Source: a virus (lineage: Duplodnaviria > Caudoviricetes). From it: a DNA stretch of 52,442 nucleotides. The stretch spans positions 1 to 52,442 of IMG/VR virus record IMGVR_UViG_3300045911_000060, one strand, 5' to 3'. The notes below the pieces were generated by a model that saw nothing but the letters and a program-made list of their open reading frames with translations, was not told the DNA's origin and did not search any database. Below are positions 3,122 to 39,179 of the stretch, one piece after another (position 1 is the stretch's first letter; every line of letters starts with the position of its first letter). A program made the translations under genes and the position numbers.

Positions 3122-3840
3122 TCAGTCGGCATGAACCGACCTACGAATTTCTGATCCCGGACGAACTCCGGGATGTCCTTGTCAGTATACCAGTTTGCGA
3201 CTTTGATGCGACCCGGTGCTTTCTTATAGACAGCGGTTCCCCGGCGGAACCATGCTGGCGTCTCTTCCCATTTGACTTTCTTCTCTTTGCGCAAGAGTTC
3301 GATGGCGTCTTTCGACGAAACCTTGTGGAGACGTTTGGCGCTGAAGTGGTGGCGGGCCAGCATCGAAACACTGTTGCGGATCGCGTCCTGTTGCCGCCAG
3401 ATGAAGTAGTTGACGACTTCGTGTTGTGCCGGGATGATGAAGGCGCGGGCGTCGAACTGCCCCATGAGATTCGGGGAAATCTTCATCATGGAGTAGTTGA
3501 AATACGCGGTGAAGGCGGAAGCCGCGATAGTTTCGATCTTGGACTTGTTCCCACCGAACCACATTTGTGTTTCGTGGGTGTCGTAGTCGGTCGCAAGGAA
3601 GCTGGCTTCGTCGCTCTGTGTATAGGCGAACTTGCAACCGCCGATCTCTTCGGCCACCATCCGGGTAGCGAAGGTCATGGCATCATGAATCGTTTCGTCG
3701 TAGGGACGTTTGAAAGGCTTCGTGAAAGTGTGAAAAGCCCGTCCGTCGATGCGAACGATGAGGTTAGTCCGTTGGGGAAGTACTTGACGAAAAGGGTCTT
3801 CGTACTTCCCTTTCATCCGGTCGCCTAGAGAATCCTTCAT
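3118..3840 (-). CDS. tRNA(His) guanylyltransferase Thg1-like protein (3'-5' polymerase)
   Basis: SLGDRMKxYE, RIDGRAFHTFT, YTQSDE, FDAR, YFIWRQQDAIRNS motifs. Confidence 0.93.
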   Translation of the reverse strand: MKDSLGDRMKGKYEDPFRQVLPQRTNLIVRIDGRAFHTFTKPFKRPYDETIHDAMTFATRMVAEEIGGCKFAYTQSDEASFLATDYDTHETQMWFGGNKSKIETIAASAFTAYFNYSMMKISPNLMGQFDARAFIIPAQHEVVNYFIWRQQDAIRNSVSMLARHHFSAKRLHKVSSKDAIELLRKEKKVKWEETPAWFRRGTAVYKKAPGRIKVANWYTDKDIPEFVRDQKFVGRFMPTE

Positions 3841-4273: not shown

Positions 4274-4333
4274 ACCTGATTAGTATGTCAGAAATCTCGT
4301 TTCGCGTCAACTGGCGCGCTCTAAATGTCTGGC

Positions 4334-5488
4334 ATGCTAGAACTTCAGCGTGCCCTGCGAACAGGCGAAGAGACGACGGAATCACTGTCGGCACGTGGCA
4401 TCCGTGCCAAAGAGCACCCGGAATATCCGGGCCTTTGGCATTTCAGCTACGATCAACTTGAAGCCAAACCAAGTGATCCGATGGTCCGGGAAGCGCGCGG
4501 GTTGATCCTTGACCAGAATGACGATTGGAAAGTCGTCGCCGCGCCGTTCTTCCGTTTTGCCAATCACGGCGAATCGTGGGCCGATGCGATTGACTGGTCT
4601 ACAGCCGTCGTGCAAGAGAAGGTAGACGGATCGTTGATGATTGTCTGGTACTACAACGGTCAATGGAACGTCAGCACCAAGGGAAGCCCGAACGCGGGCG
4701 GTCAGGTGGACGTGCATCCGTTCACGTTCTCTGAGTTGTTCTGGCGGGTCTGGAAGGATCGCGGTTTCTCCACCGGGTACATGCATCCTCTGTTCACGTA
4801 TATGTTTGAACTGGTGTCCCCGTACAATCGGGTAGTGTGCAACTACGGAGAACCGAATCTCATTTTCCTTGGCGCGCGGAACAATGAAACTTTGGTCGAA
4901 CAATCGGCACATGAGTGGGCATGCGAATACTTGCCGGTGCCGGTTGCTCACTATCCGTTGAACAGTCTGGACGATGTGATCGCGGCGGCGCAAAAGTTGA
5001 CCCCGGAGTCGGGCGAAGGTTTTGTCGTGGTGGATGGACAGTACCGCCGGGTGAAGATCAAATCCCCGGCCTACGTCTTGGTTCACCATGCCAAGGATGG
5101 ATTCGGCCAGCGGCGGATCATTGATCTGATTCGTTTGGGTGAAACCAGCGAAGTGCTCAGCTACTTCCCGGAGTACCAACAGCAGTACGATGAACTGAAT
5201 TCCGCATTGGATGAACTGGTCGCAGAGTTGGAAGAGGCGTATGCCAAAATTCAACACATCGAAATCCAAAAGGACTTCGCGGTCGAAGCGTTGAAGACTC
5301 GATATTCGGCGGCGCTGTTCCAGACGCGGAATGGTCGTACAACGTCCATTCGGTCGGCTGTGCTGGCCGCGTCAACTGAAGTGCTCGAAAGGTTGCTTGG
5401 TGCCCGGAAAACCCGTGTTATCATTCCACATGCGGGAAATCCTACGGAAGATGCGCCAATGCCTGACACGGAAGAAGGAAGCGCCTGA
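4334..5488 (+). CDS. T4 Rnl1-family RNA ligase
   Basis: REARGLI, FFRF, EKVDGS (motif I), FEL, EGFVV, RVKIKS; start 4334 chosen from TAAATG box 6 nt upstream. Confidence 0.9.
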   Translation: MLELQRALRTGEETTESLSARGIRAKEHPEYPGLWHFSYDQLEAKPSDPMVREARGLILDQNDDWKVVAAPFFRFANHGESWADAIDWSTAVVQEKVDGSLMIVWYYNGQWNVSTKGSPNAGGQVDVHPFTFSELFWRVWKDRGFSTGYMHPLFTYMFELVSPYNRVVCNYGEPNLIFLGARNNETLVEQSAHEWACEYLPVPVAHYPLNSLDDVIAAAQKLTPESGEGFVVVDGQYRRVKIKSPAYVLVHHAKDGFGQRRIIDLIRLGETSEVLSYFPEYQQQYDELNSALDELVAELEEAYAKIQHIEIQKDFAVEALKTRYSAALFQTRNGRTTSIRSAVLAASTEVLERLLGARKTRVIIPHAGNPTEDAPMPDTEEGSA

Positions 5489-19760: not shown

Positions 19761-20104
19761 TGTACGAAGTCAGTCTGATCGAACGCCCCGACCATAAGGT
19801 CTGGATTCCAGCCGGGCAGTTCGATCCAGAAAAACACGTCAAGCACGCGGAACGAAACATCACCGCTGATGACATGCTGGATTGGATTGATGGTGATTGG
19901 CCGTCCATCGAAACCGATGCGACCGGCACAACCGTCGCCCGGCTGGAACCGGGGCAAGGCGCGAACAACATGTTCCGGGGAAGGAATGTGCGGGAAGCCT
20001 TGGCGAAGGCCATGATGACGCCGCCGTTCGGTGGCCCGACTCCACAGCAGTTTGATGCGATGAATGACGAAGAACAGCTTGCGTCAAACTCTGTGGTGTG
20101 CTAA
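19760..20104 (+). CDS. hypothetical protein
   Basis: TGATG-coupled start. Confidence 0.55.
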   Translation: MYEVSLIERPDHKVWIPAGQFDPEKHVKHAERNITADDMLDWIDGDWPSIETDATGTTVARLEPGQGANNMFRGRNVREALAKAMMTPPFGGPTPQQFDAMNDEEQLASNSVVC

Positions 20105-20112
20105 ATTAGAGT

Positions 20113-20400
20113 TGTTCGCGTTGATCTGGTGTAGACCACGTTCGGACGCCGGTTCAATTCCGGCCACCTCCACCAAAACACGCTCCCGCAAGGGGGCACC
20201 ATACGGGGGTGTCAGGTTTCGACGGGCGGCGGAAAGCTAAAGGGAGCGGGCCGGTAGACGACTACCGAAGCCGATGAAGTTTTATGAGCGGATTCGGACC
20301 AACAGCGTAAAACAATAACTGCCAACAGCAATGTTCTGGCGATGGCTGCTTAATTGCACCCATCCGGGGAATTGAAGGTGCCCTGTTAAAGAAAGACCTT
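20113..20400 (+). ncRNA. ssrA: circularly permuted (two-piece) tmRNA; tag ANSNVLAMAA
   Basis: T-arm and acceptor 3' end ...CACCTCCACCA ends 20175, before the 5' end GGGGGTG...TTCGAC at 20205; G3:U70; ATAACT then tag frame 20321-20353; promoter TTGCGT-17-TAAATT. Outer ends approximate. Confidence 0.88.
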
Positions 20401-20408
20401 CGCAAGAT

Positions 20409-20435
20409 CGCCGGACTTTCGGGTCCGGCGTTTTT
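20409..20435 (+). terminator. intrinsic terminator of tmRNA
   Basis: CGCCGGAC-TTTCGG-GTCCGGCG-TTTTT. Confidence 0.85.
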
Positions 20436-20466
20436 GTTTCCCACCGAACTTTTCCACAGGTACCTC

Positions 20467-21967: not shown

Positions 21968-22873
21968 GTGCCGAAGACCTATAGCCATTTCATCCGGGAA
22001 GGACATACTAGTGATGAAGTCTTGTCGTTCAAAGACTATCCGCTGGTGTCGAAGTTCCATCTGTTCAACAAGCTGTTCTTCGACAATGTGATCCCGAACA
22101 ACACTCCAGTGGTGTGGGGCAAGACCGGCAAGCGGGTATCGGGAGTGACGACCGGCAAATTCAAACTGGCACCGGGCGAACGAAAGCCATCCGGCGCGCT
22201 GGCCGCGATGACGAAGATGAATGGTGAAGTCTACGACCTGAAGATCACCATGAGCACGGAAGTGCCGATCCGCCCGGAGTGGAAGTGGGACGGTATCCTT
22301 CTTCATGAAATGGTTCATGCGTACCTCATCACGCAAGGCTACTGGTTCGAGAATCACGGATCGCGTTTCTTGACCAAGGTTCATATGGTGTCCAAAGATT
22401 TCGGTCGTCCGGTTCCGGTGTCGGACACGATTAGCCCGGAAGAAATGGAGCACGTGACCGGCAAGCCGTGTGTGTTGGTGACTTTCATCGATCATGACCG
22501 AAAGGATATGCAGTACTCCCTGTTGATGCCGACGTGGAAAGCCAAGGCCGGGGAACTCAAAGCAACCTTGCGGAAATTGTGGATCAGATACGACATGGAG
22601 ATCACCGCATTCTTCATCCCGGCGTCGAAGCTGGCGACCCGGATGACAGTCAGCCGGACGCTTCCAGCGGCGCGCTACGGAGTCTCTGATCGGACCAAAG
22701 ACATGCTATTGACCGATAAGAAGAGTGCGGTCCAGTTGTGGACGATGAATACTTCCATTGAACGTGACGCCGATCAGAAGGCCAAGGACGACTTCTTCAA
22801 TCCCAACAAACCCGCCCCGGATATCGGTGGTAGGGACTTCGGCAAGTGGAATTCCAAAGTCATCGCCCCGTGA
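21968..22873 (+). CDS. SprT-like zinc metalloprotease
   Basis: FNKLFFDN, LLHEMVHAY, HGSRF. Confidence 0.8.
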   Translation: MPKTYSHFIREGHTSDEVLSFKDYPLVSKFHLFNKLFFDNVIPNNTPVVWGKTGKRVSGVTTGKFKLAPGERKPSGALAAMTKMNGEVYDLKITMSTEVPIRPEWKWDGILLHEMVHAYLITQGYWFENHGSRFLTKVHMVSKDFGRPVPVSDTISPEEMEHVTGKPCVLVTFIDHDRKDMQYSLLMPTWKAKAGELKATLRKLWIRYDMEITAFFIPASKLATRMTVSRTLPAARYGVSDRTKDMLLTDKKSAVQLWTMNTSIERDADQKAKDDFFNPNKPAPDIGGRDFGKWNSKVIAP

Positions 22874-22885
22874 TAGAATTGGGTC

Positions 22886-23191
22886 ATGTATCGAGACGCC
22901 GCCGAAGTTGTTGCATCGCAGAAATGGTTTCACGTTGACGCGGTAACCGGCGAACATCTGTCGTGGGAACAAGAAGATGAGTCTTCCTGTTCCAGCCGGG
23001 AAGAAGCTATCGGGATCATTCAACGCACGCTCGATTTCTGGCTAGTCAAGATGCGCGATATGTACGTCGCACAGGGATTGGACATCGAACGGGCGCGGGA
23101 AGACGCGAAGGTTACGTTCATCATCAATCTGGAAGCGATGATGTTGAATACTCCCTTCGCAAAACAGTGGGGATTAGAACTTTCCTTTTGA
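22886..23191 (+). CDS. hypothetical protein
   Basis: ATG 6 nt after TAGAAT. Confidence 0.6.
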   Translation: MYRDAAEVVASQKWFHVDAVTGEHLSWEQEDESSCSSREEAIGIIQRTLDFWLVKMRDMYVAQGLDIERAREDAKVTFIINLEAMMLNTPFAKQWGLELSF

Positions 23192-23197
23192 AAAATG

Positions 23198-23227
23198 TTG
23201 ACTTTTGTCCGGCGGCATGTATAAATA
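23198..23227 (+). promoter_or_regulatory. RNA-operon promoter (TTGACT ... TATAAATA)
   Basis: -35 box plus a perfect T4 late consensus TATAAATA at 23220-23227. Confidence 0.75.
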
Positions 23228-23245
23228 GAGATGAGGCAACGCACC

Positions 23246-23368
23246 ATGAAGGCAATCTTCACAACTCGAACGCACACAGCCACTACGATGTCTGTGCGCG
23301 CGACTGCGTTTGCCGGTGGCGTCGATATTGTGATCGATACCATCGCTGCGACGGCAGCAGCGGCTTAA
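23246..23368 (+). CDS. Ala/Thr-rich leader peptide MKAIFTTRTHTATTMSVRATAFAGGVDIVIDTIAATAAAA
   Basis: GAGG RBS; in-frame alternative start 23231; not in the ORF track. Confidence 0.6.
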   Translation: MKAIFTTRTHTATTMSVRATAFAGGVDIVIDTIAATAAAA

Positions 23369-23416
23369 GCCGCCCACAGACTTTCCCCTCCAAGTCATAT
23401 TAGGTTTTGTCCATTT

Positions 23417-23493
23417 GGGCCGTTAGCTCATTTTGGGAGAGCATCCGCCTTGCAAGCGGAAGGTAGCCGGTTCGATCCCGGCACGGTCCACCA
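23417..23493 (+). tRNA. tRNA-Ala(TGC)
   Basis: Cloverleaf, G3:U70, loop CT-TGC-AA, CCA. Confidence 0.95.
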
Positions 23494-23500
23494 AACAAAT

Positions 23501-23580
23501 GGGGCACGGGGCTGCATGGGGTGGCCGCTTCGATGGCATCGAAGATATTCAGGTGGGTTCGATTCCCACGTGTTCCACCA
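23501..23580 (+). tRNA. tRNA-Ala(GGC)
   Basis: G3:U70, loop AT-GGC-AT, G at position 8, CCA. Confidence 0.85.
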
Positions 23581-23639
23581 AACAGAGACGGGCGATTACA
23601 AGTTTCTTGTGTCGTGCGATTGCAAGTTTTCTCTGTCTT

Positions 23640-23652
23640 TGTTCTTTGAAAA
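23640..23652 (+). promoter_or_regulatory. rrn-type boxA antitermination element TGTTCTTTGAAAA
   Basis: Matches boxA consensus; preceded by a stem (ACAGAGA/TCTCTGT). Confidence 0.6.
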
Positions 23653-23692
23653 TCGAATAGTTTTTGCGGAAGGAATCTCGGTTCACTAAAAC

Positions 23693-23773
23693 GGGGCACG
23701 GGACTGCATGGGGGTGGTCGCCTCATTCGCAATGAGGATATTCAGGTGGGTTCGATTCCCACGTGTTCCACCA
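23693..23773 (+). tRNA. tRNA-Ala(CGC)
   Basis: Paralog of Ala(GGC); loop TT-CGC-AA; CCA. Confidence 0.85.
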
Positions 23774-23780
23774 AGATTCC

Positions 23781-24019
23781 ATGACACGAAGCCGAAGTAT
23801 AAGTACTTCTTGACAGGGCCGTTCAAAGCCGAAGTCGGAAGATTATCTGGTTACAACAGATGGCCGGGCTTACTAAGTTCGGTCTTCCCCGTGTTATGGG
23901 GAATGCTTCGTTACCGGGCAACCGGGCGACCGTCAGACCTGTACGGTGACATTTGACAGGCACTTTGATGCTTCTGATGAGTTGGATTCTTGCTTTGAAC
24001 GGCTCTTTCTTCGTGTCAT
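23781..24019 (+). ncRNA. unidentified multibranch structured RNA
   Basis: Closing stems 23781-91/24009-19 and 23815-29/23992-24006 plus five internal hairpins. Confidence 0.65.
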
Positions 24020-24069
24020 ACTGAATTCAGGACAAGCCGCCTCAGATTGGTTATCTGTCCCCACCTTTC

Positions 24070-24146
24070 GGAGATGTAGCTTAACATGGTTAAAGCGCCG
24101 GGCCGCAAAGCCCGGAGAAGTTGGTTCGAGTCCAATTCTTAGTCGA
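24070..24146 (+). pseudogene. degenerate tRNA (GCA, Cys-like)
   Basis: D and T arms intact, 8-nt anticodon loop, broken acceptor stem, no CCA. Confidence 0.55.
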
Positions 24147-24156
24147 TCTGTACTCT

Positions 24157-24312
24157 CTTGCTTGTCCATAATTTTCGCTGGCCGGTGCCGACTTTCTGGC
24201 TTAAGAAAGAGCACCTTCCTCCAAAGTCGGTAGTCGTGGGGCGAACGGTTAACGTCGATGTTTCCCACTGTCAGTCGGAGCGACATCGGCCAGCGTGCAT
24301 TCCTTCCGCAAG
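24157..24312 (+). ncRNA. unidentified structured RNA
   Basis: 12-bp stem 24176-87/24284-95; CCGACTTT/AAAGTCGG; GTGGG/CCCAC; outer CTTGC/GCAAG. Confidence 0.5.
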
Positions 24313-24315
24313 TTC

Positions 24316-24389
24316 GGGGCATTTCGTTAGTGGCAAACGGCACCACTGTCTATGGTGTACCACGGGTTCGATTCCCGTATGCCCCGCCA
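24316..24389 (+). tRNA. tRNA-Asp(GTC)
   Basis: Loop CT-GTC-TA, G73, CCA. Confidence 0.88.
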
Positions 24390-24390
24390 C

Positions 24391-24468
24391 GGTCTTGTAG
24401 GGGAGTTGGCCGTCCCCGTCACCCTGTCACGGTGAAGATCACGGGTTCGAATCCCGTCAGGACCGCCA
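24391..24468 (+). tRNA. tRNA-Asp(GTC)
   Basis: Loop CT-GTC-AC, G73, CCA. Confidence 0.92.
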
Positions 24469-24504
24469 AGTTTGACGTTCACGTTTGTGGATGTCAGACC
24501 CGTT

Positions 24505-24606
24505 GGGGAGATAGCCTAGCTTGGTTAAGGCACCGTTGCATGCCTTTTGCTGGCAACAGCCGTTTTGTGATGGTTATCATTGGTTCGAATCCAATTCTCC
24601 CCTCCA
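24505..24606 (+). tRNA. tRNA-like RNA with ~25-nt expansion in the anticodon region (identity undetermined)
   Basis: Perfect acceptor GGGGAGA/TCTCCCC, D and T arms, CCA; 102 nt. Confidence 0.7.
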
Positions 24607-24610
24607 ACAT

Positions 24611-24686
24611 GCCGGTGTAGTTTAAGTGGCAAAATAGTGGTTTCGTACTCCACAGTCACGACTTCAATCTGTCGTCACCGGCTCCA
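24611..24686 (+). tRNA. tRNA-Thr(CGT)
   Basis: GCCGGTG/CACCGGC, loop TT-CGT-AC, 8-nt T loop, CCA. Confidence 0.8.
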
Positions 24687-24696
24687 AACACAACAC

Positions 24697-24772
24697 GCCG
24701 AATAAGCATTGATGGCGATGCGCTGGTCTTGTAAATCAGAGAAGAGGGTTCAACTTCCCTCATTCGGCTCCA
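24697..24772 (+). tRNA. tRNA-Thr(TGT)
   Basis: Loop CT-TGT-AA, 8-nt T loop, CCA. Confidence 0.85.
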
Positions 24773-24774
24773 AC

Positions 24775-24865
24775 GGGCCTGTAGCTTAGAGTGCCGGGGA
24801 CGCCCGGACGGTCAGAGCACTTCAGGTTGAAGAAGGCGCGGGTTCGATCCCCGCCAGTCCCGCCA
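24775..24865 (+). tRNA. tRNA-like RNA with hairpin inserted in D loop and shortened anticodon arm
   Basis: Acceptor and T arm intact, CCA; CCGGG-GACG-CCCGG in D loop; CTTCA-GGT-TGAAG arm. Confidence 0.7.
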
Positions 24866-25566
24866 TGCACCTGTCTTCTAACTGGTCAGGAACCGCGATT
24901 GGTATTCGCGAAATATGGGTTCGAGTCCCATCGGGTGCTCCATTCTTTTGATGATATCGTTGACGACGAATTGCGCGACCTTTTCCTTTATTGAGCGCTC
25001 CAAATGTCGGAGTGACACTATGACAGTTCGGGCAGATGAGTTCAAGGTTCTCTTCCTTGTTGTTCAGCGGGTCGCCGTCAATATGATTGACTTGTAACGG
25101 TACCCGTTGTGTGACAGGATTGATTTGACACCATCCGCACTTCCAACACGCCAGGCCTTTCTTCTCGAACAGGTATCGGCGGATAGTTTTGACTGATCGA
25201 CATACCGCCGCCTTTGATACCATCTTCCAATCCATTCTTCCACCGTTGAATGAATTCATTGTACAGATGATTTTTGTGGCAGCGACCAGAACAGAATTCA
25301 TTCGTTCCCTTTTTGACATCTTTGCCGCACACAATGCACGTGGGTGTTTTGTCTGCCCGTCGCACGTTATTGTATCTGGCCGCGCACGATTGATTGCAGA
25401 ACTTCTTTTTTCTGGTTTCCGCAACGCGACCGCCTTCTGGTACATGAATCACTTCATCACAATGAAGGCAACGGTTGGGTGACTCATTGTATGATGTGAT
25501 TGCTTGTTGACGAAAACGATGTGCTGTGATGGCGGCACCTAGCCGCCCCGCTTGGGATCTGGTCAC
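24822..25566 (-). pseudogene. frameshifted HNH homing endonuclease with zinc fingers
   Basis: N-terminal CxxC/FCxxxC repeats in one frame; HNH (HIDGDPLNN...LICPNCH) in another; shift at 25187-25190. Confidence 0.75.
24867..24942 (+). tRNA. tRNA-Thr(GGT)
   Basis: Loop TT-GGT-AT, CCA. Confidence 0.92.
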
Positions 25567-25605
25567 GCCAAGATTTAGGCTTCGCGTTCGGGCCTAAATA
25601 CCCAC

Positions 25606-26076
25606 ATGGCATTGTGGAATCTATCGAATCCGCCATCGTGGGCACCCAACGCGATTGCGACCCCAAAGGGATGGGTGAATCCTGACACCGGTGAAGTTCT
25701 GGTGACCATCGGATCGCTGGATCGTCGTACCGGCGCGGCGGTCATTCGAAGCGCTCATATCGTCAACAACAAGGGAACCTACCAAGACGGAGATACCATC
25801 CGTCTCCGTGTTCAGTTCAGCGAACCGGTGCTTGTGGTTGGTGTGCCGACGATTTCCATTGATATTGGGGTAGACACCGTGGATCTGTCCTATGTGTCCG
25901 GGTCGGGCACAGCGGCTCTTGATTTCACGTATGAGATCAACGGAGAAACCGGCCAGATCGTGATGGCGAATCCCACAACGATCACCGGTTCGATTCACGA
26001 TGTCGCGCCGGGCGACTACGGATTGCAAGTCGATACCGACTTCGTACCACCGGCTCCCCTTCCGATGGTTGAATAA
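25606..26076 (+). CDS. Ig-like virion protein
   Basis: PPSWAPNAIATPKGWVNPDTGEVLV; VQFSEPV...YVSGSGT...FTY; TAAATA upstream. Confidence 0.7.
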   Translation: MALWNLSNPPSWAPNAIATPKGWVNPDTGEVLVTIGSLDRRTGAAVIRSAHIVNNKGTYQDGDTIRLRVQFSEPVLVVGVPTISIDIGVDTVDLSYVSGSGTAALDFTYEINGETGQIVMANPTTITGSIHDVAPGDYGLQVDTDFVPPAPLPMVE

Positions 26077-26106: not shown

Positions 26107-26344
26107 GTTTTTCGTAGTGGGCTTTCATTGCGAAGATCAACCCGGTCGGACCAGTCATCGGTTGCACGCCACAAATGTTCGCTGCAACCAATTTCGGCAT
26201 CGCCCGGCGGATCAACGAAATGAGAACCGCATCCGGGTGTGGTTTGGGACGCGCCCAAGCGGGCAAAGTCAAACCCAATGTCCGGCATGCCGCCGCAACA
26301 AAAGGTGTCAGAAGGGTGATGAAAAAAGCCTGTCTTGTCATCAC
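26090..26344 (-). CDS. mini-protein: hydrophobic leader plus gp23 major-capsid Gol-region fragment
   Basis: [36 protein letters not shown] matches the conserved T4-type MCP motif; GTGA overlap with clpP. Confidence 0.8.
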
Positions 26345-26934
26345 GGCTGTTTCTTAATCACCTTATCGACAAGGCCGTACTTGACCGCCGCGTCCGCTTC
26401 CAAGATGTAGTCGCGGTCCACGTCCGCGCTGATCTTTTCGAGCGGCTGGCCGGTCTTGGTTGCCAAGATGCCGTTGAGGATTTCGCGCATGCGCAAGATT
26501 TCCTTGGCGTGGATGTCGATGTCGCTGGCCTGTCCGCTGAGTCCGCGCATCAACGGCTGGTGGATCAGGATGCGTGCGTGCGGCAAAGCGAAGCGCTTAC
26601 CCTTGGCACCGTTCGCCAGTAACACAGCGCCCATTGAAGCGGCCTGACCGACGCAATAGGTCACGATGTCGGGCTTGACCAGATTCATCGTATCGAGAAT
26701 GGCAAGGCCCGCCGTGATCGATCCGCCCGGCGAATTGATGTACATGCTGATGTCCTTGTCCGGGTCTTCCGCCGCAAGGAAGAGAAGCTGTGCGACGACC
26801 AGATTGGCAACGTCGTCATCAATCGCAGTGCCAAGGAAGATGATGTGTTCTTTGAGAAGACGGGAGTAGATGTCGTAGGAACGTTCGCCGCGCGGGGACT
26901 GTTCCACGACCATCGGGATGAGTGTGTTGTGCAT
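26341..26934 (-). CDS. clpP: ATP-dependent Clp protease proteolytic subunit
   Basis: DIYSRLL, YINSPGG, AASMG (Ser), IHQP (His), DRD (Asp). Confidence 0.97.
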
Positions 26935-38303: not shown

Positions 38304-39179
38304 TTATCGCGGTTGCTGTTGTTGTTGTTGTGCCGCGCGGCGTTGTGCTGGCGTAATCACTGTGTCGCGGAACCGTTCCCGGTTGCCGCGTCCAGTATCA
38401 TTGTTGACACTGAGAGTGCGTTCGTCCAGATCAACGGTGAGCACGCGCTTGTAGGTGAAGGTGACTGATACGCGGTGGATTTCGTTTTGGGTGTCCCAAT
38501 TCAGATCCATCTGATTGATTGAAATGGGGAAGGCTTCCAATAGCGTACAGGTGTAGGTGTCCTGATCGTTCAGATCCATCTGAGTGATCGTGATGCTGGT
38601 GGAGAATTCGCCGATGTAGTTGAAATCCTGTGTCTGTGGGTCCATGATGGAATGCATCCATCCTTCGAAGAACCACCGTTCAAACATGTCGTCTCCGACG
38701 TAGAACTCCAGATCGATATCGTTGTATTGCGGCATGTACGGGACTTTGAACTGCGAACCGTAGATGCGGTTGTCGTCGGTCTGATATGACACACCGGGGA
38801 TTTCTGCATTGAAGCAATAGAACATCAACCGGGAACCGGTTTCGATAGCATCTTTCGCGCCGAACCACTGTGCCCAATTCTGGTCGTATCCCGGCGGGCC
38901 GATGGTCTGGTCCAGATTTTGAAACAGATTGAGCGTGGCAATTTCCACCCGGAACCGATTGGGCCGGGCGAAGACATTGCTGGCAAACATTGTCGCGGTG
39001 AAGTTGGTGATGTTTGCGTAGTTCGGATGATCCAGAACCAGTCGCGGCGCATTGTTGACGAACGCTTCAAAATTCGACACCCGTTGAGGAATCGAACTGA
39101 TCGCAATCGGTTGAAACGGCGGCAACGGCGGGAGATTGAGACGTGGAATGTCCCCGACGCGCGGTAGTGTAAAAGACAT
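38304..39179 (-). CDS. baseplate tail-tube initiator / tail tube-like protein (gp54-like)
   Basis: ARPNRFRVEI, AEIPG, FFEGWM, LLEAFPISI, VTFTYK. Confidence 0.75.
   Translation of the reverse strand: MSFTLPRVGDIPRLNLPPLPPFQPIAISSIPQRVSNFEAFVNNAPRLVLDHPNYANITNFTATMFASNVFARPNRFRVEIATLNLFQNLDQTIGPPGYDQNWAQWFGAKDAIETGSRLMFYCFNAEIPGVSYQTDDNRIYGSQFKVPYMPQYNDIDLEFYVGDDMFERWFFEGWMHSIMDPQTQDFNYIGEFSTSITITQMDLNDQDTYTCTLLEAFPISINQMDLNWDTQNEIHRVSVTFTYKRVLTVDLDERTLSVNNDTGRGNRERFRDTVITPAQRRAAQQQQQQPR

What the first reader, a model, noticed from the sequence alone, without database searches (positions are those of the whole stretch)
23781..24019. Unrecognised ~240-nt multibranch RNA between tRNAs
Nested long-range helices: ATGACACGAAG/CTTCGTGTCAT (11 bp), AGGGCCGTTCAAAGC/GCTTTGAACGGCTCT (15 bp) and TCGGAAG/CTTCTGA. 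They enclose hairpins at 23845-61 and 23862-84 (both with 7-nt anticodon-sized loops, GTTACAA and TTACTAA), 23885-903, a GCAA tetraloop at 23914-25, and 23929-47, whose CCTGT can pair with ACAGG 23956-60 (possible pseudoknot). tRNA processing would release it. It could be a new ncRNA class, for example a multi-loop decoy for anticodon nucleases.
Basis: partly seen in the sequence, partly recalled or inferred. Interest (0 to 1): 0.75.

Follow-up and report, generated by a model that had tools for sequence, protein, structure and literature searches.

The report
Structured RNA gene in phage tRNA array
A roughly 240-base, tightly folded and strongly conserved non-coding RNA of no described family sits among the tRNA genes of an uncultured T4-like jumbo phage, and it may be the RNA partner of a Ro60 protein that the phage's close relatives encode.

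Summary
The opposite strand folds worse (-77.8), and 12 of 89 pairs are G-U, so this is an RNA on the strand of the tRNAs. No Rfam family matches. It is not coding, not a tRNA and not a repeat.

Two IMG/VR relatives carry one copy each at 94% identity. The inner 145 nt differ by 2 wobble-compatible substitutions and 2 loop indels. Neighbouring spacers differ by 9-17% and flanking genes by 17-29%, so the sequence is under purifying selection.

No more distant homologue could be fetched, so covariation is untested.

One new lead: the near-complete relatives encode a full Ro60/Rsr protein but no canonical YrlA. The element has a Y-RNA-like layout, with a long terminal stem, a GCCGAAG bulge (the GNCGAAN0-1G/CGAA Ro60 motif) and an upper stem. 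However, it lies 34 kb from Ro60, has no tRNA-like arms, and the motif is common in this genome.

The anticodon-nuclease decoy idea is weakened because two of the "anticodon-sized" loops change length in relatives.

Verdict: a real, new structured RNA gene (about 0.85). A Y-RNA-like role is the leading but unproven mechanism (about 0.3).

The parts
23198..23225 (+). Promoter-like site TTGACT-N16-TATAAA upstream of the RNA array, followed by a small conserved ORF (about 23245-23361).
   Evidence: Read by eye. The consensus scan did not list it, because its rule needs T at the last -10 position. The stretch 23192-23416 differs by only 4.9% from L003. Function is inferred.
23693..23773 (+). Upstream tRNA-Ala(CGC)-like gene, 81 nt, ending in CCA. 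Its 3' processing would set the 5' side of the element's precursor.
   Evidence: ARAGORN. Not reported by the Rfam tRNA model. 1 substitution and 1 indel against L003.
23781..24019 (+). The whole structured RNA element (P1 to P1').
   Evidence: Fold z -6.84. The minus strand folds worse, at -77.8 kcal/mol. One copy per genome in G000, G001 and G002.
23781..23791 (+). P1 5' strand, pairing with 24009-24019 (11 bp). This is the variable outer stem.
   Evidence: A 6-nt deletion in L003 shortens it to about 5 bp, and the fold keeps P1, H1 and P2.
23794..23809 (+). Side hairpin H1 (GAAGUA-UAAG-UACUUC).
   Evidence: Invariant in L003.
23815..23829 (+). P2 5' strand, pairing with 23992-24006 (15 bp).
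   Evidence: In L003 there is one G-U to A-U change and one new U-U mismatch.
23828..23834 (+). GCCGAAG at the bulged junction between P2 and P3. It matches the GNCGAAN0-1G / CGAA motif of bacterial and phage Y RNAs.
   Evidence: Sequence. Motif definition from PMC4201824 and PMC12135203. Invariant in L003, X13 and X16. The background rate is high: 116 matches in the window on both strands.
23834..23841 (+). P3 5' strand, pairing with 23971-23978 (8 bp, two G-U). It closes the five-arm junction.
23845..23861 (+). Hairpin Ha, 5-bp stem, loop GUUACAA.
   Evidence: The loop gains one A in L003.
23862..23884 (+). Hairpin Hb, 8-10 bp with three G-U pairs, loop UUACUAA or ACU.
   Evidence: The loop loses one A in L003, X13 and X16.
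23885..23903 (+). Hairpin Hc, 6-8 bp, loop GUGUUAU or GUU.
   Evidence: Invariant in relatives.
23908..23929 (+). Hairpin Hd with GCAA (GNRA) tetraloop at 23918-23921.
   Evidence: The two substitutions here (23911 U-G to C-G, 23927 G-C to G-U) both keep pairing.
23931..23970 (+). Arm He, three stacked helices (7 + 5 + 3 bp) with internal loops.
   Evidence: Invariant in relatives.
24069..24144 (+). Downstream tRNA-Cys-like gene. RNase P cleavage at its 5' end would set the 3' side of the element's precursor.
   Evidence: ARAGORN and Rfam tRNA at 31.7 bits. The processing step is inferred.

Best explanation
It is a gene for a stable, highly structured non-coding RNA of an undescribed family, carried in the tRNA operon of an uncultured T4-like jumbo phage.

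Proposed working:
1. The RNA is transcribed on the + strand together with the tRNAs, probably from the promoter-like site at 23198-23225.
2. It is cut free when the flanking tRNAs are matured: 3' trimming of tRNA-Ala(CGC) on one side and RNase P at the tRNA-Cys-like gene on the other.
3. The 26-bp P1/P2 stalk protects its ends.
4. Leading mechanism: it acts as a Y-RNA-like scaffold. The phage's own Ro60/Rsr protein binds the bulged GCCGAAG junction between P2 and P3. The five-arm module (Ha-He, with a GNRA tetraloop and three UUAY loops) is the effector end that recruits or blocks another factor.

Shown: the fold, the strand, the absence of coding potential, single copy, strong sequence conservation, and Ro60 in the near-complete relatives together with no canonical YrlA.

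Inferred: transcription, processing, stability, Ro60 binding and any effector.

My odds: a real, selected RNA gene about 0.85. The Y-RNA-like mechanism specifically about 0.3, which is the figure given as confidence.
For: Fold and strand:
- z -6.84 on the + strand against -4.32 and 25 kcal/mol weaker on the - strand.
- 12 of 89 pairs are G-U in the window.

Not coding: indels of 6, 1, 1, 1, 2 and 1 nt against L003.

Conservation against L003:
- Inner core 23834-23978: 2 substitutions in 145 nt, both wobble-compatible.
- Three neighbouring spacers: 36 of 310 aligned nt.
- SprT-like, orf101, HNH and orf156 genes: 17-29%.
- tRNAs: 0-4%.
- At the spacer rate about 17 changes would be expected in the core (my arithmetic).

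Other features:
- Single copy in each of the 3 genomes of the lineage.
- It has the lowest z of 32 inter-tRNA gaps.

Y-RNA lead:
- G001 (96% complete) and G002 encode a 559-aa TROVE + vWA_Ro60 protein on the same strand as the element.
- No YrlA at or near the gathering score anywhere in G000, G001 or G002. The best hits, 23 bits against a cut-off of 69, are tRNAs.
- The only gap of 100 nt or more that I saw among the ORFs of 60 aa or more within about 4 kb of Ro60, judged by eye from the list, is 161 nt. It reads as a terminator plus hairpins without CGAA.
- The element has the stem-bulge-stem layout, with GCCGAAG on the 5' strand. This is the criterion used to define bacterial and phage Y RNAs (PMC4201824, sections read; PMC12135203, passages read).
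- Y RNAs can be made from one precursor with a tRNA (D. radiodurans Yrn1/Yrn2 with tRNA-Asp).
- Phage Ro60 genes sit in or beside tRNA arrays: G005 and Streptomyces phage Comrade.
Against: - No covariation evidence. There are only two distinct sequences: 0 pairs changed on both sides, 4 one-sided wobble changes, and 2 pairs broken in L003.
- No expression data.
- The element is 34 kb from Ro60 in G001, whereas nearly all YrlA genes lie within 4 kb.
- It has no tRNA-like T or D arm, and neither the YrlA nor the tRNA model scores on it.
- It is larger than the described Y RNAs.
- GNCGAAG is frequent in this genome (116 per 104,884 strand-bases, about 0.26 expected per 239 nt), so the motif alone is weak.
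- The most structured 240-nt window of all G001 on a coarse grid lies at the 3' end of the Ro60 gene itself. It could hold the true partner RNA.
- G005 has Ro60 but no match to the element's model.
- The window itself is a 28% fragment and does not reach the Ro60 locus.
Confidence: 0.3

Rival explanations
1. A protein or tRNA sponge unrelated to Ro60. The three abutting hairpins Ha, Hb and Hc each display UUAY (UUAC, UUAC, UUAU) to a sequence-specific RNA-binding factor. That factor could be a host or phage protein, or the GUA anticodon of tRNA-Tyr, since UAC and UAU are the Tyr codons. The long stalk only stabilises the RNA.
For: - All three loops hold UUAY.
- Three random 7-nt loops of this composition share such a 4-mer in 1.2% of 200,000 trials.
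- The motif is unchanged in L003, while the loop 3' sides gain or lose an A. That fits a sequence motif rather than loop geometry.
- The core is conserved at the sequence level, not only in its pairing.
Against: - The motif was found after looking, so the 1.2% is not a true probability.
- MFE folding buries part of the motif in Hb and Hc by closing 3-nt loops.
- No candidate binding protein was identified.
- A 3-4 bp loop-loop contact with a modified anticodon loop would be weak (general knowledge).
Confidence: 0.17
2. A cis-acting structured spacer. The fold serves the tRNA precursor itself, for example as an RNase III or RNase E processing stalk, or as a folding insulator or stabiliser between tRNA genes. 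The excised piece has no function in trans.
For: - It lies inside a co-oriented tRNA array with no terminator-like or promoter-like site next to it on the + strand (the scan of 22800-25700 gave one site of each kind, at 24304-24319 + and 25513-25486 -).
- The P1+P2 stalk of 26 bp resembles processing stalks of rRNA operons (my comparison, recalled).
- The outer stem P1 is the least conserved part.
Against: - A purely structural spacer should accept compensated changes, yet the 145-nt core has only 2 substitutions where about 17 are expected at the spacer rate.
- The other three spacers measured in the array and the promoter-proximal stretch upstream of it are not unusually structured, with z -0.8, -1.5 and -1.5.
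- None of the other 31 gaps examined in related arrays looks comparable on inspection.
Confidence: 0.17
3. A small relative in kind of the ornate phage RNAs (ROOL, GOLLD). It would be an RNA that folds compactly through tertiary contacts such as the GNRA tetraloop, and self-assembles or works without a protein partner.
For: - ROOL and GOLLD are encoded in phages and prophages, often near tRNA islands, and their function is unknown (PMC12286853, passages read).
- The element has a multi-way junction, a GNRA tetraloop and almost no single-stranded sequence.
Against: - No match to either Rfam family.
- It is about 240 nt, against more than 500-800 nt.
- These tools cannot assess tertiary or quaternary structure.
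Confidence: 0.08
4. One reading: a multi-loop decoy whose anticodon-like hairpins soak up host anticodon nucleases.
For: - Ha, Hb and Hc can each be drawn with a 7-nt loop that has U at position 2 and a purine at position 6. The chance for all three is about 0.003.
- The phage carries a T4 Rnl1-like RNA ligase at 4325-5488 (phrog_562, 7.5e-49). That enzyme family repairs nuclease-cut tRNA in T4 (recalled).
- In relatives the phage encodes more than 40 tRNAs.
Against: - Loop length is not kept: Ha is 8 nt and Hb is 6 nt in L003.
- Stems are 5, 8-10 and 6-8 bp rather than a uniform 5 bp.
- The loops do not copy the phage's own tRNA-Val(UAC) or tRNA-Asn(GUU) anticodon arms (5 of 7 loop bases each, different stems).
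- ACU is not a natural anticodon (recalled).
Confidence: 0.06
5. Not a functional RNA. It would be a chance inverted-repeat cluster, a DNA-level element (origin, recombination or endonuclease site), a small mobile element with terminal inverted repeats, or decayed tRNA genes.
For: - It has 11-bp terminal inverted repeats.
- An HNH endonuclease gene lies beside the array (HNH_3, 20.3 bits, below the cut-off of 24.8).
- No transcript evidence exists.
Against: - 0 of 200 shuffles fold as well.
- The strand asymmetry of 25 kcal/mol and the 12 G-U pairs point to RNA.
- One copy per genome, so it is not a multiplying element.
- No tRNA-model hit even at E<=10.
- Conservation is far above that of the neighbouring spacers.
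Confidence: 0.05

Closest known systems
Bacterial and phage Y RNAs (YrlA, Rfam RF02553; D. radiodurans Yrn1/Yrn2; Thermus phage phiLo Yrl1/Yrl2), the partners of Ro60/Rsr
   Same: - A long stem formed by the 5' and 3' ends.
- A stem-bulge-stem with a GNCGAAN0-1G / CGAA motif on the 5' strand.
- A large distal module.
- A Ro60 orthologue in the same phage lineage, on the same strand.
- Possible co-transcription with tRNAs.
- Phage Ro60 genes are commonly set in tRNA arrays.
   Different: - No score with the YrlA model.
- No T or D arm.
- About 240 nt, with five hairpins instead of a tRNA-like domain or a simple loop.
- 34 kb from Ro60 rather than within 4 kb.
- Binding is untested.
Phage T4 rnaC and rnaD (species 1 and 2 RNAs) in the T4 tRNA cluster
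   Same: - Small stable RNAs encoded in line with phage tRNA genes, next to a homing endonuclease gene, with no known role (PMC3014915, passage read).
- The host phage here is T4-like: Rnl1-like ligase, gp2-like DNA end protector, baseplate wedge.
   Different: - No sequence similarity: blastn of the element against 50,697 phage records found nothing at E<=1.
- T4 rnaC is 139 nt with a T-arm-like GGUUCGAAUCC hairpin (z -4.6), and rnaD is 119 nt with z -0.8.
- This RNA is larger, more structured and has no T arm.
ROOL and GOLLD ornate RNAs of phages and prophages
   Same: Structured RNAs of unknown function, encoded in phages, often beside tRNA islands.
   Different: - No Rfam match.
- Two to four times smaller.
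- Known here from one narrow lineage, not from a broad family supported by covariation.

Membership tests
YrlA-type Y RNA (RF02553) | Scores at or above the family's gathering score (69 bits) with the covariance model. | tested here: not met
   no hit on the element in G000, G001 or G002 even at E<=10. The best hits, 23 bits, are tRNAs; no YrlA or Y_RNA hit in 23300-25100 at E<=10.
YrlA-type Y RNA (RF02553) | tRNA-like module with conserved T and D arms. | tested here: not met
   No tRNA-model hit inside 23781-24019 at E<=10. No GUUCRANYC-type T loop sits in a 5-bp hairpin of the predicted fold (my reading).
Y RNA in the broad sense (Ro60 partner) | Long stem formed by the 5' and 3' ends, with a bulged helix carrying GNCGAAN0-1G / CGAA on the 5' strand. 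| tested here: met
   P1, P2 and P3 with GCCGAAG at 23828-23834 across the P2/P3 bulge. Invariant in relatives. Caveat: the motif is frequent in this genome.
Y RNA in the broad sense (Ro60 partner) | A Ro60/Rsr (TROVE) protein encoded by the same genome. | tested here: inconclusive
   Present in the near relatives G001 and G002 (TROVE 1.8e-38 and vWA_Ro60 1.9e-52). Absent from the window, which is a 28%-complete fragment ending about 9 kb short of the syntenic place (my mapping).
Y RNA in the broad sense (Ro60 partner) | Gene within about 4 kb of Ro60 on the same strand. | tested here: not met
   Same strand, but 34 kb apart in G001: element at 38616-38844, Ro60 at about 71908-73587.
Y RNA in the broad sense (Ro60 partner) | Physical binding to Ro60. 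| not testable with these tools
   The complex predictor takes proteins and small ligands only. No RNA-protein tool was available.
tRNA (RF00005) | Cloverleaf scoring at or above 29 bits. | tested here: not met
   Searches list 9 tRNAs around the element, and ARAGORN lists two further tRNA-Ala-like genes. None lies inside 23781-24019.
GOLLD / ROOL | Match to the Rfam covariance models. | tested here: not met
   No hit at gathering score over the whole window, nor at E<=10 over 23300-25100.
T4 rnaC / rnaD | Sequence similarity to the T4 RNAs. | tested here: not met
   blastn (word 11) of the element against the phage collection that holds T4 found no match at E<=1. The model R1 was not run on the T4 locus.
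T4 rnaC / rnaD | Stable small RNA encoded in line with phage tRNA genes and released by tRNA processing. | not testable with these tools
   The position is met. Stability and processing need RNA data. No RNA run held the stretch.

The most novel reading that the evidence does not exclude
The RNA is a phage counter-defence decoy released from the tRNA operon. Its three abutting hairpins display UUAY loops (the Tyr codons UAC, UAC, UAU, which can also be drawn as anticodon-like loops). They would capture either the anticodon loop of tRNA-Tyr or a host defence nuclease that reads anticodon loops, and so protect the translation apparatus that the phage supplements with its 40-odd tRNAs, its tmRNA and its Rnl1-like ligase.
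Probability: 0.07. Interest if true: 0.85.

Novelty: new variant of a known kind. Interest (0 to 1): 0.5.

Why it matters
Phage tRNA islands are known to harbour structured RNAs whose roles are still open: T4 rnaC and rnaD for some fifty years, and more recently ROOL and GOLLD. This element adds a compact, well-defined example in a deep-branching T4-like jumbo phage lineage found in hot-spring mats, lake water and wastewater.

If it is the partner of the phage Ro60, it would be a Y RNA without a tRNA-like domain, encoded far from Ro60 and matured with tRNAs. That would widen where and how Y RNAs should be sought in the several hundred phages that carry Ro60 but have no recognised Y RNA.

The test is cheap: one protein, one transcript, and a CGAA mutant.

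Tried and rejected
Homologue hunt. Everything below found only the two near relatives or nothing.
- 15-mer of P2 in IMG/VR: 27 chance stretches, none homologous on blastn.
- SprT-like neighbour as anchor:
  - 2 loci in IMG/VR.
  - 3 distant Tenacibaculum phage records.
  - 4 protein clusters in 5.8 billion proteins. The 73% and 69% relatives lie only in Logan/ENA, and the tool that fetches such contigs is closed.
  - The alignment of the four in JGI metagenomes gave 600 pattern hits and no relative.
- Upstream tRNA-Ala-like 3' half as a pattern: the same 2 contigs.
- orf156 as anchor: the same 2 contigs.
- Baseplate-wedge alignment: 71 IMG/VR loci.
- ClpP as anchor in JGI metagenomes: 80 loci, mostly bacterial ClpP. 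R1 gave 8 weak hits, best E 0.5.
- R/Y-degenerate 41-nt pattern of Hc-Hd: 2 contigs in IMG/VR and 0 in GTDB genomes.
- R1 on 11 tRNA-array stretches of G001, G005, G006 and G012: 0 hits with default filters. The run with filters off failed.
- R1 on DSS3P8, Sinorhizobium phage Phosso and Streptomyces phage Comrade: 0 hits.
- blastn against 50,697 phage records: nothing.

Sequencing runs.
- No RNA holder was listed.
- Of 4 runs laid, 2 cover the element. X16 (lake) carries the L003-type variant and X13 (wastewater) an intermediate one. X12 and X19 show no cover over it.
- This added no further sequence diversity.

Other checks.
- Paralogues or antisense targets within the window: none. The best antisense match is 13 nt, E 0.15.
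- Other structured gaps in related arrays read as small ORFs or as long perfect hairpins.
- Gaps near Phosso's Ro60 were uninformative.
- Genome-wide MFE scan of G001 on an 80-nt grid. The grid cuts the element, so it cannot rank it. The scan did flag the Ro60 3' end.

In-print check. Four full-text searches found no description of this RNA. Supplementary tables of PMC4201824, which list phage YrlA loci, could not be seen and may bear on how far phage Y RNAs can lie from Ro60.

Full report
**Setting**

The window is a 52,442-base IMG/VR virus record that CheckV rates 28% complete. Its genes mark a distant T4-like myovirus:
- an Rnl1-like RNA ligase at 4325-5488;
- a gp2-like DNA end protector;
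- a baseplate wedge protein;
- a tape-measure/lysin protein.

The nearest cultured phages share at most 27% identity in the wedge protein.

Positions 23417-24942 form a + strand RNA array, in this order:
- three tRNA-Ala genes (UGC, GGC, CGC; the last two are 80-81 nt and odd);
- the element;
- a tRNA-Cys-like gene;
- two tRNA-Asp;
- a 99-nt tRNA;
- three tRNA-Thr;
- an 88-nt tRNA.

A permuted tmRNA lies at 20083-20444.

A promoter-like TTGACT-N16-TATAAA at 23198-23225 and a small ORF precede the array (my reading). The consensus scan listed no + strand promoter, and only a weak terminator-like site at 24304.

**The observation**

- The + strand RNA folds to -102.8 kcal/mol. Shuffles average -69.8, giving z -6.84, and none of 200 folds as well.
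- Pair probabilities are near 1 for most helices.
- The architecture is a stalk and a junction. The stalk is P1 (11 bp), side hairpin H1 and P2 (15 bp). A bulged junction and P3 (8 bp) follow. P3 closes a junction of five arms: Ha, Hb and Hc, which abut without linkers; Hd, with a GCAA tetraloop; and the composite arm He.
CCUGU/ACAGG forms a nested helix instead.

**It is an RNA on the + strand, not something else**

- The reverse complement folds 25 kcal/mol worse (z -4.3).
- 12 of 89 pairs in the window are G-U.
- No Rfam family matches at gathering score in the window, nor at E<=10 in 23300-25100. That rules out tRNA, YrlA, Y_RNA, GOLLD, ROOL and the ribozymes held in Rfam 15.
- It is not coding. 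The relatives differ by indels of 6, 1, 1, 1, 2 and 1 nt.
- It is not a repeat: one copy in each of G000, G001 and G002, and no paralogue in the window.
- The other three spacers measured in the array and the promoter-proximal stretch upstream of it have z of -0.8, -1.5 and -1.5.
- Of 32 inter-tRNA gaps in this and related arrays, the element's gap has the lowest z.

**Conservation**

Two IMG/VR contigs (224 kb at 96% complete, and 185 kb) carry the element at 94% identity. Two public runs add the same variant (lake water) and an intermediate one (wastewater).

Nucleotide divergence against L003:

| Region | Divergence |
|---|---|
| Flanking protein genes | 17-29% |
| tmRNA | 14% |
| Three neighbouring spacers | 9-17% (36 of 310 nt) |
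| tRNAs | 0-4% |
| Element, whole | 5.7% |
| Element, 23830-23991 | 3.8% |

- The inner 145 nt (23834-23978) show only two substitutions. Both keep pairing: 23911 U-G to C-G, and 23927 G-C to G-U. There are also two single-base loop indels.
- At the spacer rate about 17 changes would be expected, so the sequence itself is constrained, and not merely its pairing.
- The outer part is looser. A 6-nt deletion in L003 shortens P1 to about 5 bp, yet L003 still folds into the same design (-94.9 kcal/mol, z -5.96). One P1 pair and one P2 pair are broken there.

**Covariation could not be tested**

With two distinct sequences there are no double-sided changes. I tried protein anchors, DNA patterns and a covariance model (R1) over these sources:
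- IMG/VR;
- JGI metagenomes;
- GTDB genomes;
- 50,697 phage records;
- 31 records of more distant relatives.

Nothing beyond the two contigs turned up. Relatives at 62-87% protein identity exist in Logan/ENA, but the tool that fetches them is closed. This is the main gap in the case.

**A lead on function**

I searched the near-complete relatives for a TROVE domain because the layout recalls Y RNAs: a long terminal stem plus a distal module.

Points in favour:
- G001 and G002 each encode a 559-aa protein with TROVE (1.8e-38) and Ro60 vWA (1.9e-52) domains. It is on the same strand as the element.
- By synteny the gene would lie about 9 kb beyond the window's left end.
- Homologues of this protein occur in 374 of 50,697 phage records.
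- The genomes contain no YrlA. The best RF02553 scores, 23 bits against a cut-off of 69, are tRNAs.
- The only non-coding gap near Ro60 is 161 nt of terminator and hairpins without CGAA.
- Chen et al. [quoted passage not shown] They also report Yrn1/Yrn2 made as one precursor with tRNA-Asp.
- The phiLo study (PMC12135203; passages read) identified phage Y-like RNAs by a stem-bulge-stem with CGAA, and showed that each CGAA base matters for binding.
- The element has GCCGAAG at 23828-23834, exactly across the P2-bulge-P3 junction on the 5' strand, and it is invariant in all variants. A second copy at 23791-23797 is peculiar to the window.
- Phage Ro60 genes sit in or next to tRNA arrays in G005 and in Streptomyces phage Comrade. 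Comrade also lacks a YrlA hit within 5 kb.

Points against:
- The element lies 34 kb from Ro60.
- It lacks T and D arms.
- It is larger than the described Y RNAs.
- The motif occurs 116 times in the window on both strands, about 0.26 expected per 239 nt.
- The most structured window of G001 on a coarse grid is at the Ro60 3' end.
- G005 has Ro60 but no R1 match.

I put this mechanism at about 0.3.

**Other readings**

- The three abutting loops share UUAY. By simulation this has a 1.2% chance, though the motif was noticed after the fact. It could mark a repeated binding site. It also spells the Tyr codons.
- The anticodon-decoy idea is weakened. Loop lengths change to 8 and 6 nt in relatives, and the arms do not resemble the phage's own Val and Asn anticodon arms.
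- A purely cis-acting processing stalk fits the variable P1 but not the sequence-level constraint on the core.
- Chance, DNA-level or mobile-element readings are disfavoured by the shuffles, the strand asymmetry, the single copy and the conservation.

**Comparison with what is known**

- In kind it belongs with RNAs embedded in phage tRNA islands. These are T4 rnaC and rnaD, whose function is unknown, and ROOL and GOLLD.
- In layout it is closest to Y RNAs.
- It is not a member of any of these families by the tests I could run.
- Four literature searches found no description of it.
- I rate it a new variant of a known kind, of moderate interest. It is a clean, testable candidate, but it is known from one narrow lineage, without covariation or expression data.

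Noticed in passing
window 20083-20444 (+): Phage-encoded permuted (two-piece type) tmRNA with tag ANSNVLAMAA (ARAGORN; Rfam tmRNA_permuted at 108.6 bits). It differs by 14% from the copy in L003, which is much more than the tRNAs differ.
   Followed up: partly
window 23501-23580 and 23693-23773 (+): Two 80-81-nt tRNA-Ala-like genes (anticodons GGC and CGC, G3:U70, enlarged D region). ARAGORN calls them, but the Rfam tRNA model does not report them. A similar tRNA-Ala plus odd tRNA-Ala-like pair stands in roseophage DSS3P8 (L002:3001-3160).
   Followed up: partly
window 24069-24144 (+); L003:8079-8153: The tRNA-Cys-like gene has an 8-nt anticodon loop in the window (ARAGORN reads a 4-base anticodon, gcaa) but a 7-nt loop (GCA) in the relative. 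This is a one-base indel in the anticodon loop between close relatives.
   Followed up: no
window 24505-24603 and 24775-24862 (+): Two long tRNAs (99 and 88 nt) found by the Rfam model only, not by ARAGORN. The order of the Thr isoacceptors differs between the window (CGU, UGU, GGU) and L003 (CGU, GGU, UGU).
   Followed up: no
window 4325-5488 (+): T4 Rnl1-like RNA ligase (phrog_562, 7.5e-49). In T4 this enzyme repairs tRNA cut by an anticodon nuclease (recalled).
   Followed up: no
G001:71908-73587 (-) = L203:5909-7588: Full-length Ro60/Rsr orthologue (TROVE + vWA_Ro60) in the near relatives, with a Macro-domain gene and a vWA gene just upstream. The 271 nt spanning its 3' end and the following gap fold with z -6.1 and rank first in a coarse genome-wide folding scan.
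   Followed up: partly
window 26341-26934 (-): The phage ClpP protease is 69-79% identical to ClpP on 80 JGI metagenome contigs, most of which look bacterial. It may be a recent host-derived gene and a clue to the host.
   Followed up: no
window 23245-23361 (+): A small ORF of about 38 codons, alanine- and threonine-rich, lies between the promoter-like site and the first tRNA and is followed by a short hairpin. The whole 23192-23416 stretch is 95% conserved, above the other spacers.
   Followed up: no
window 24822-25566 (-): HNH endonuclease-like ORFs abut the end of the tRNA array, and one overlaps tRNA-Thr on the other strand. This parallels the homing endonuclease segB inside the T4 tRNA cluster.
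   Followed up: no
L200:6298-6382 and 3460-3520 (-), G005: In the 405-kb relative, 19-20-bp perfect hairpins stand directly before tRNA genes, one of them right after the Ro60 stop codon. They may be processing or terminator hairpins.
   Followed up: partly
G001 whole record: The 224-kb relative has 41 tRNA-model hits (38 over the family cut-off). They cluster in three main arrays (about 37.7-39.2 kb, 129.8-138.4 kb and 209-212 kb), with one further hit at 34.8 kb. This is close to a full tRNA set.
   Followed up: partly
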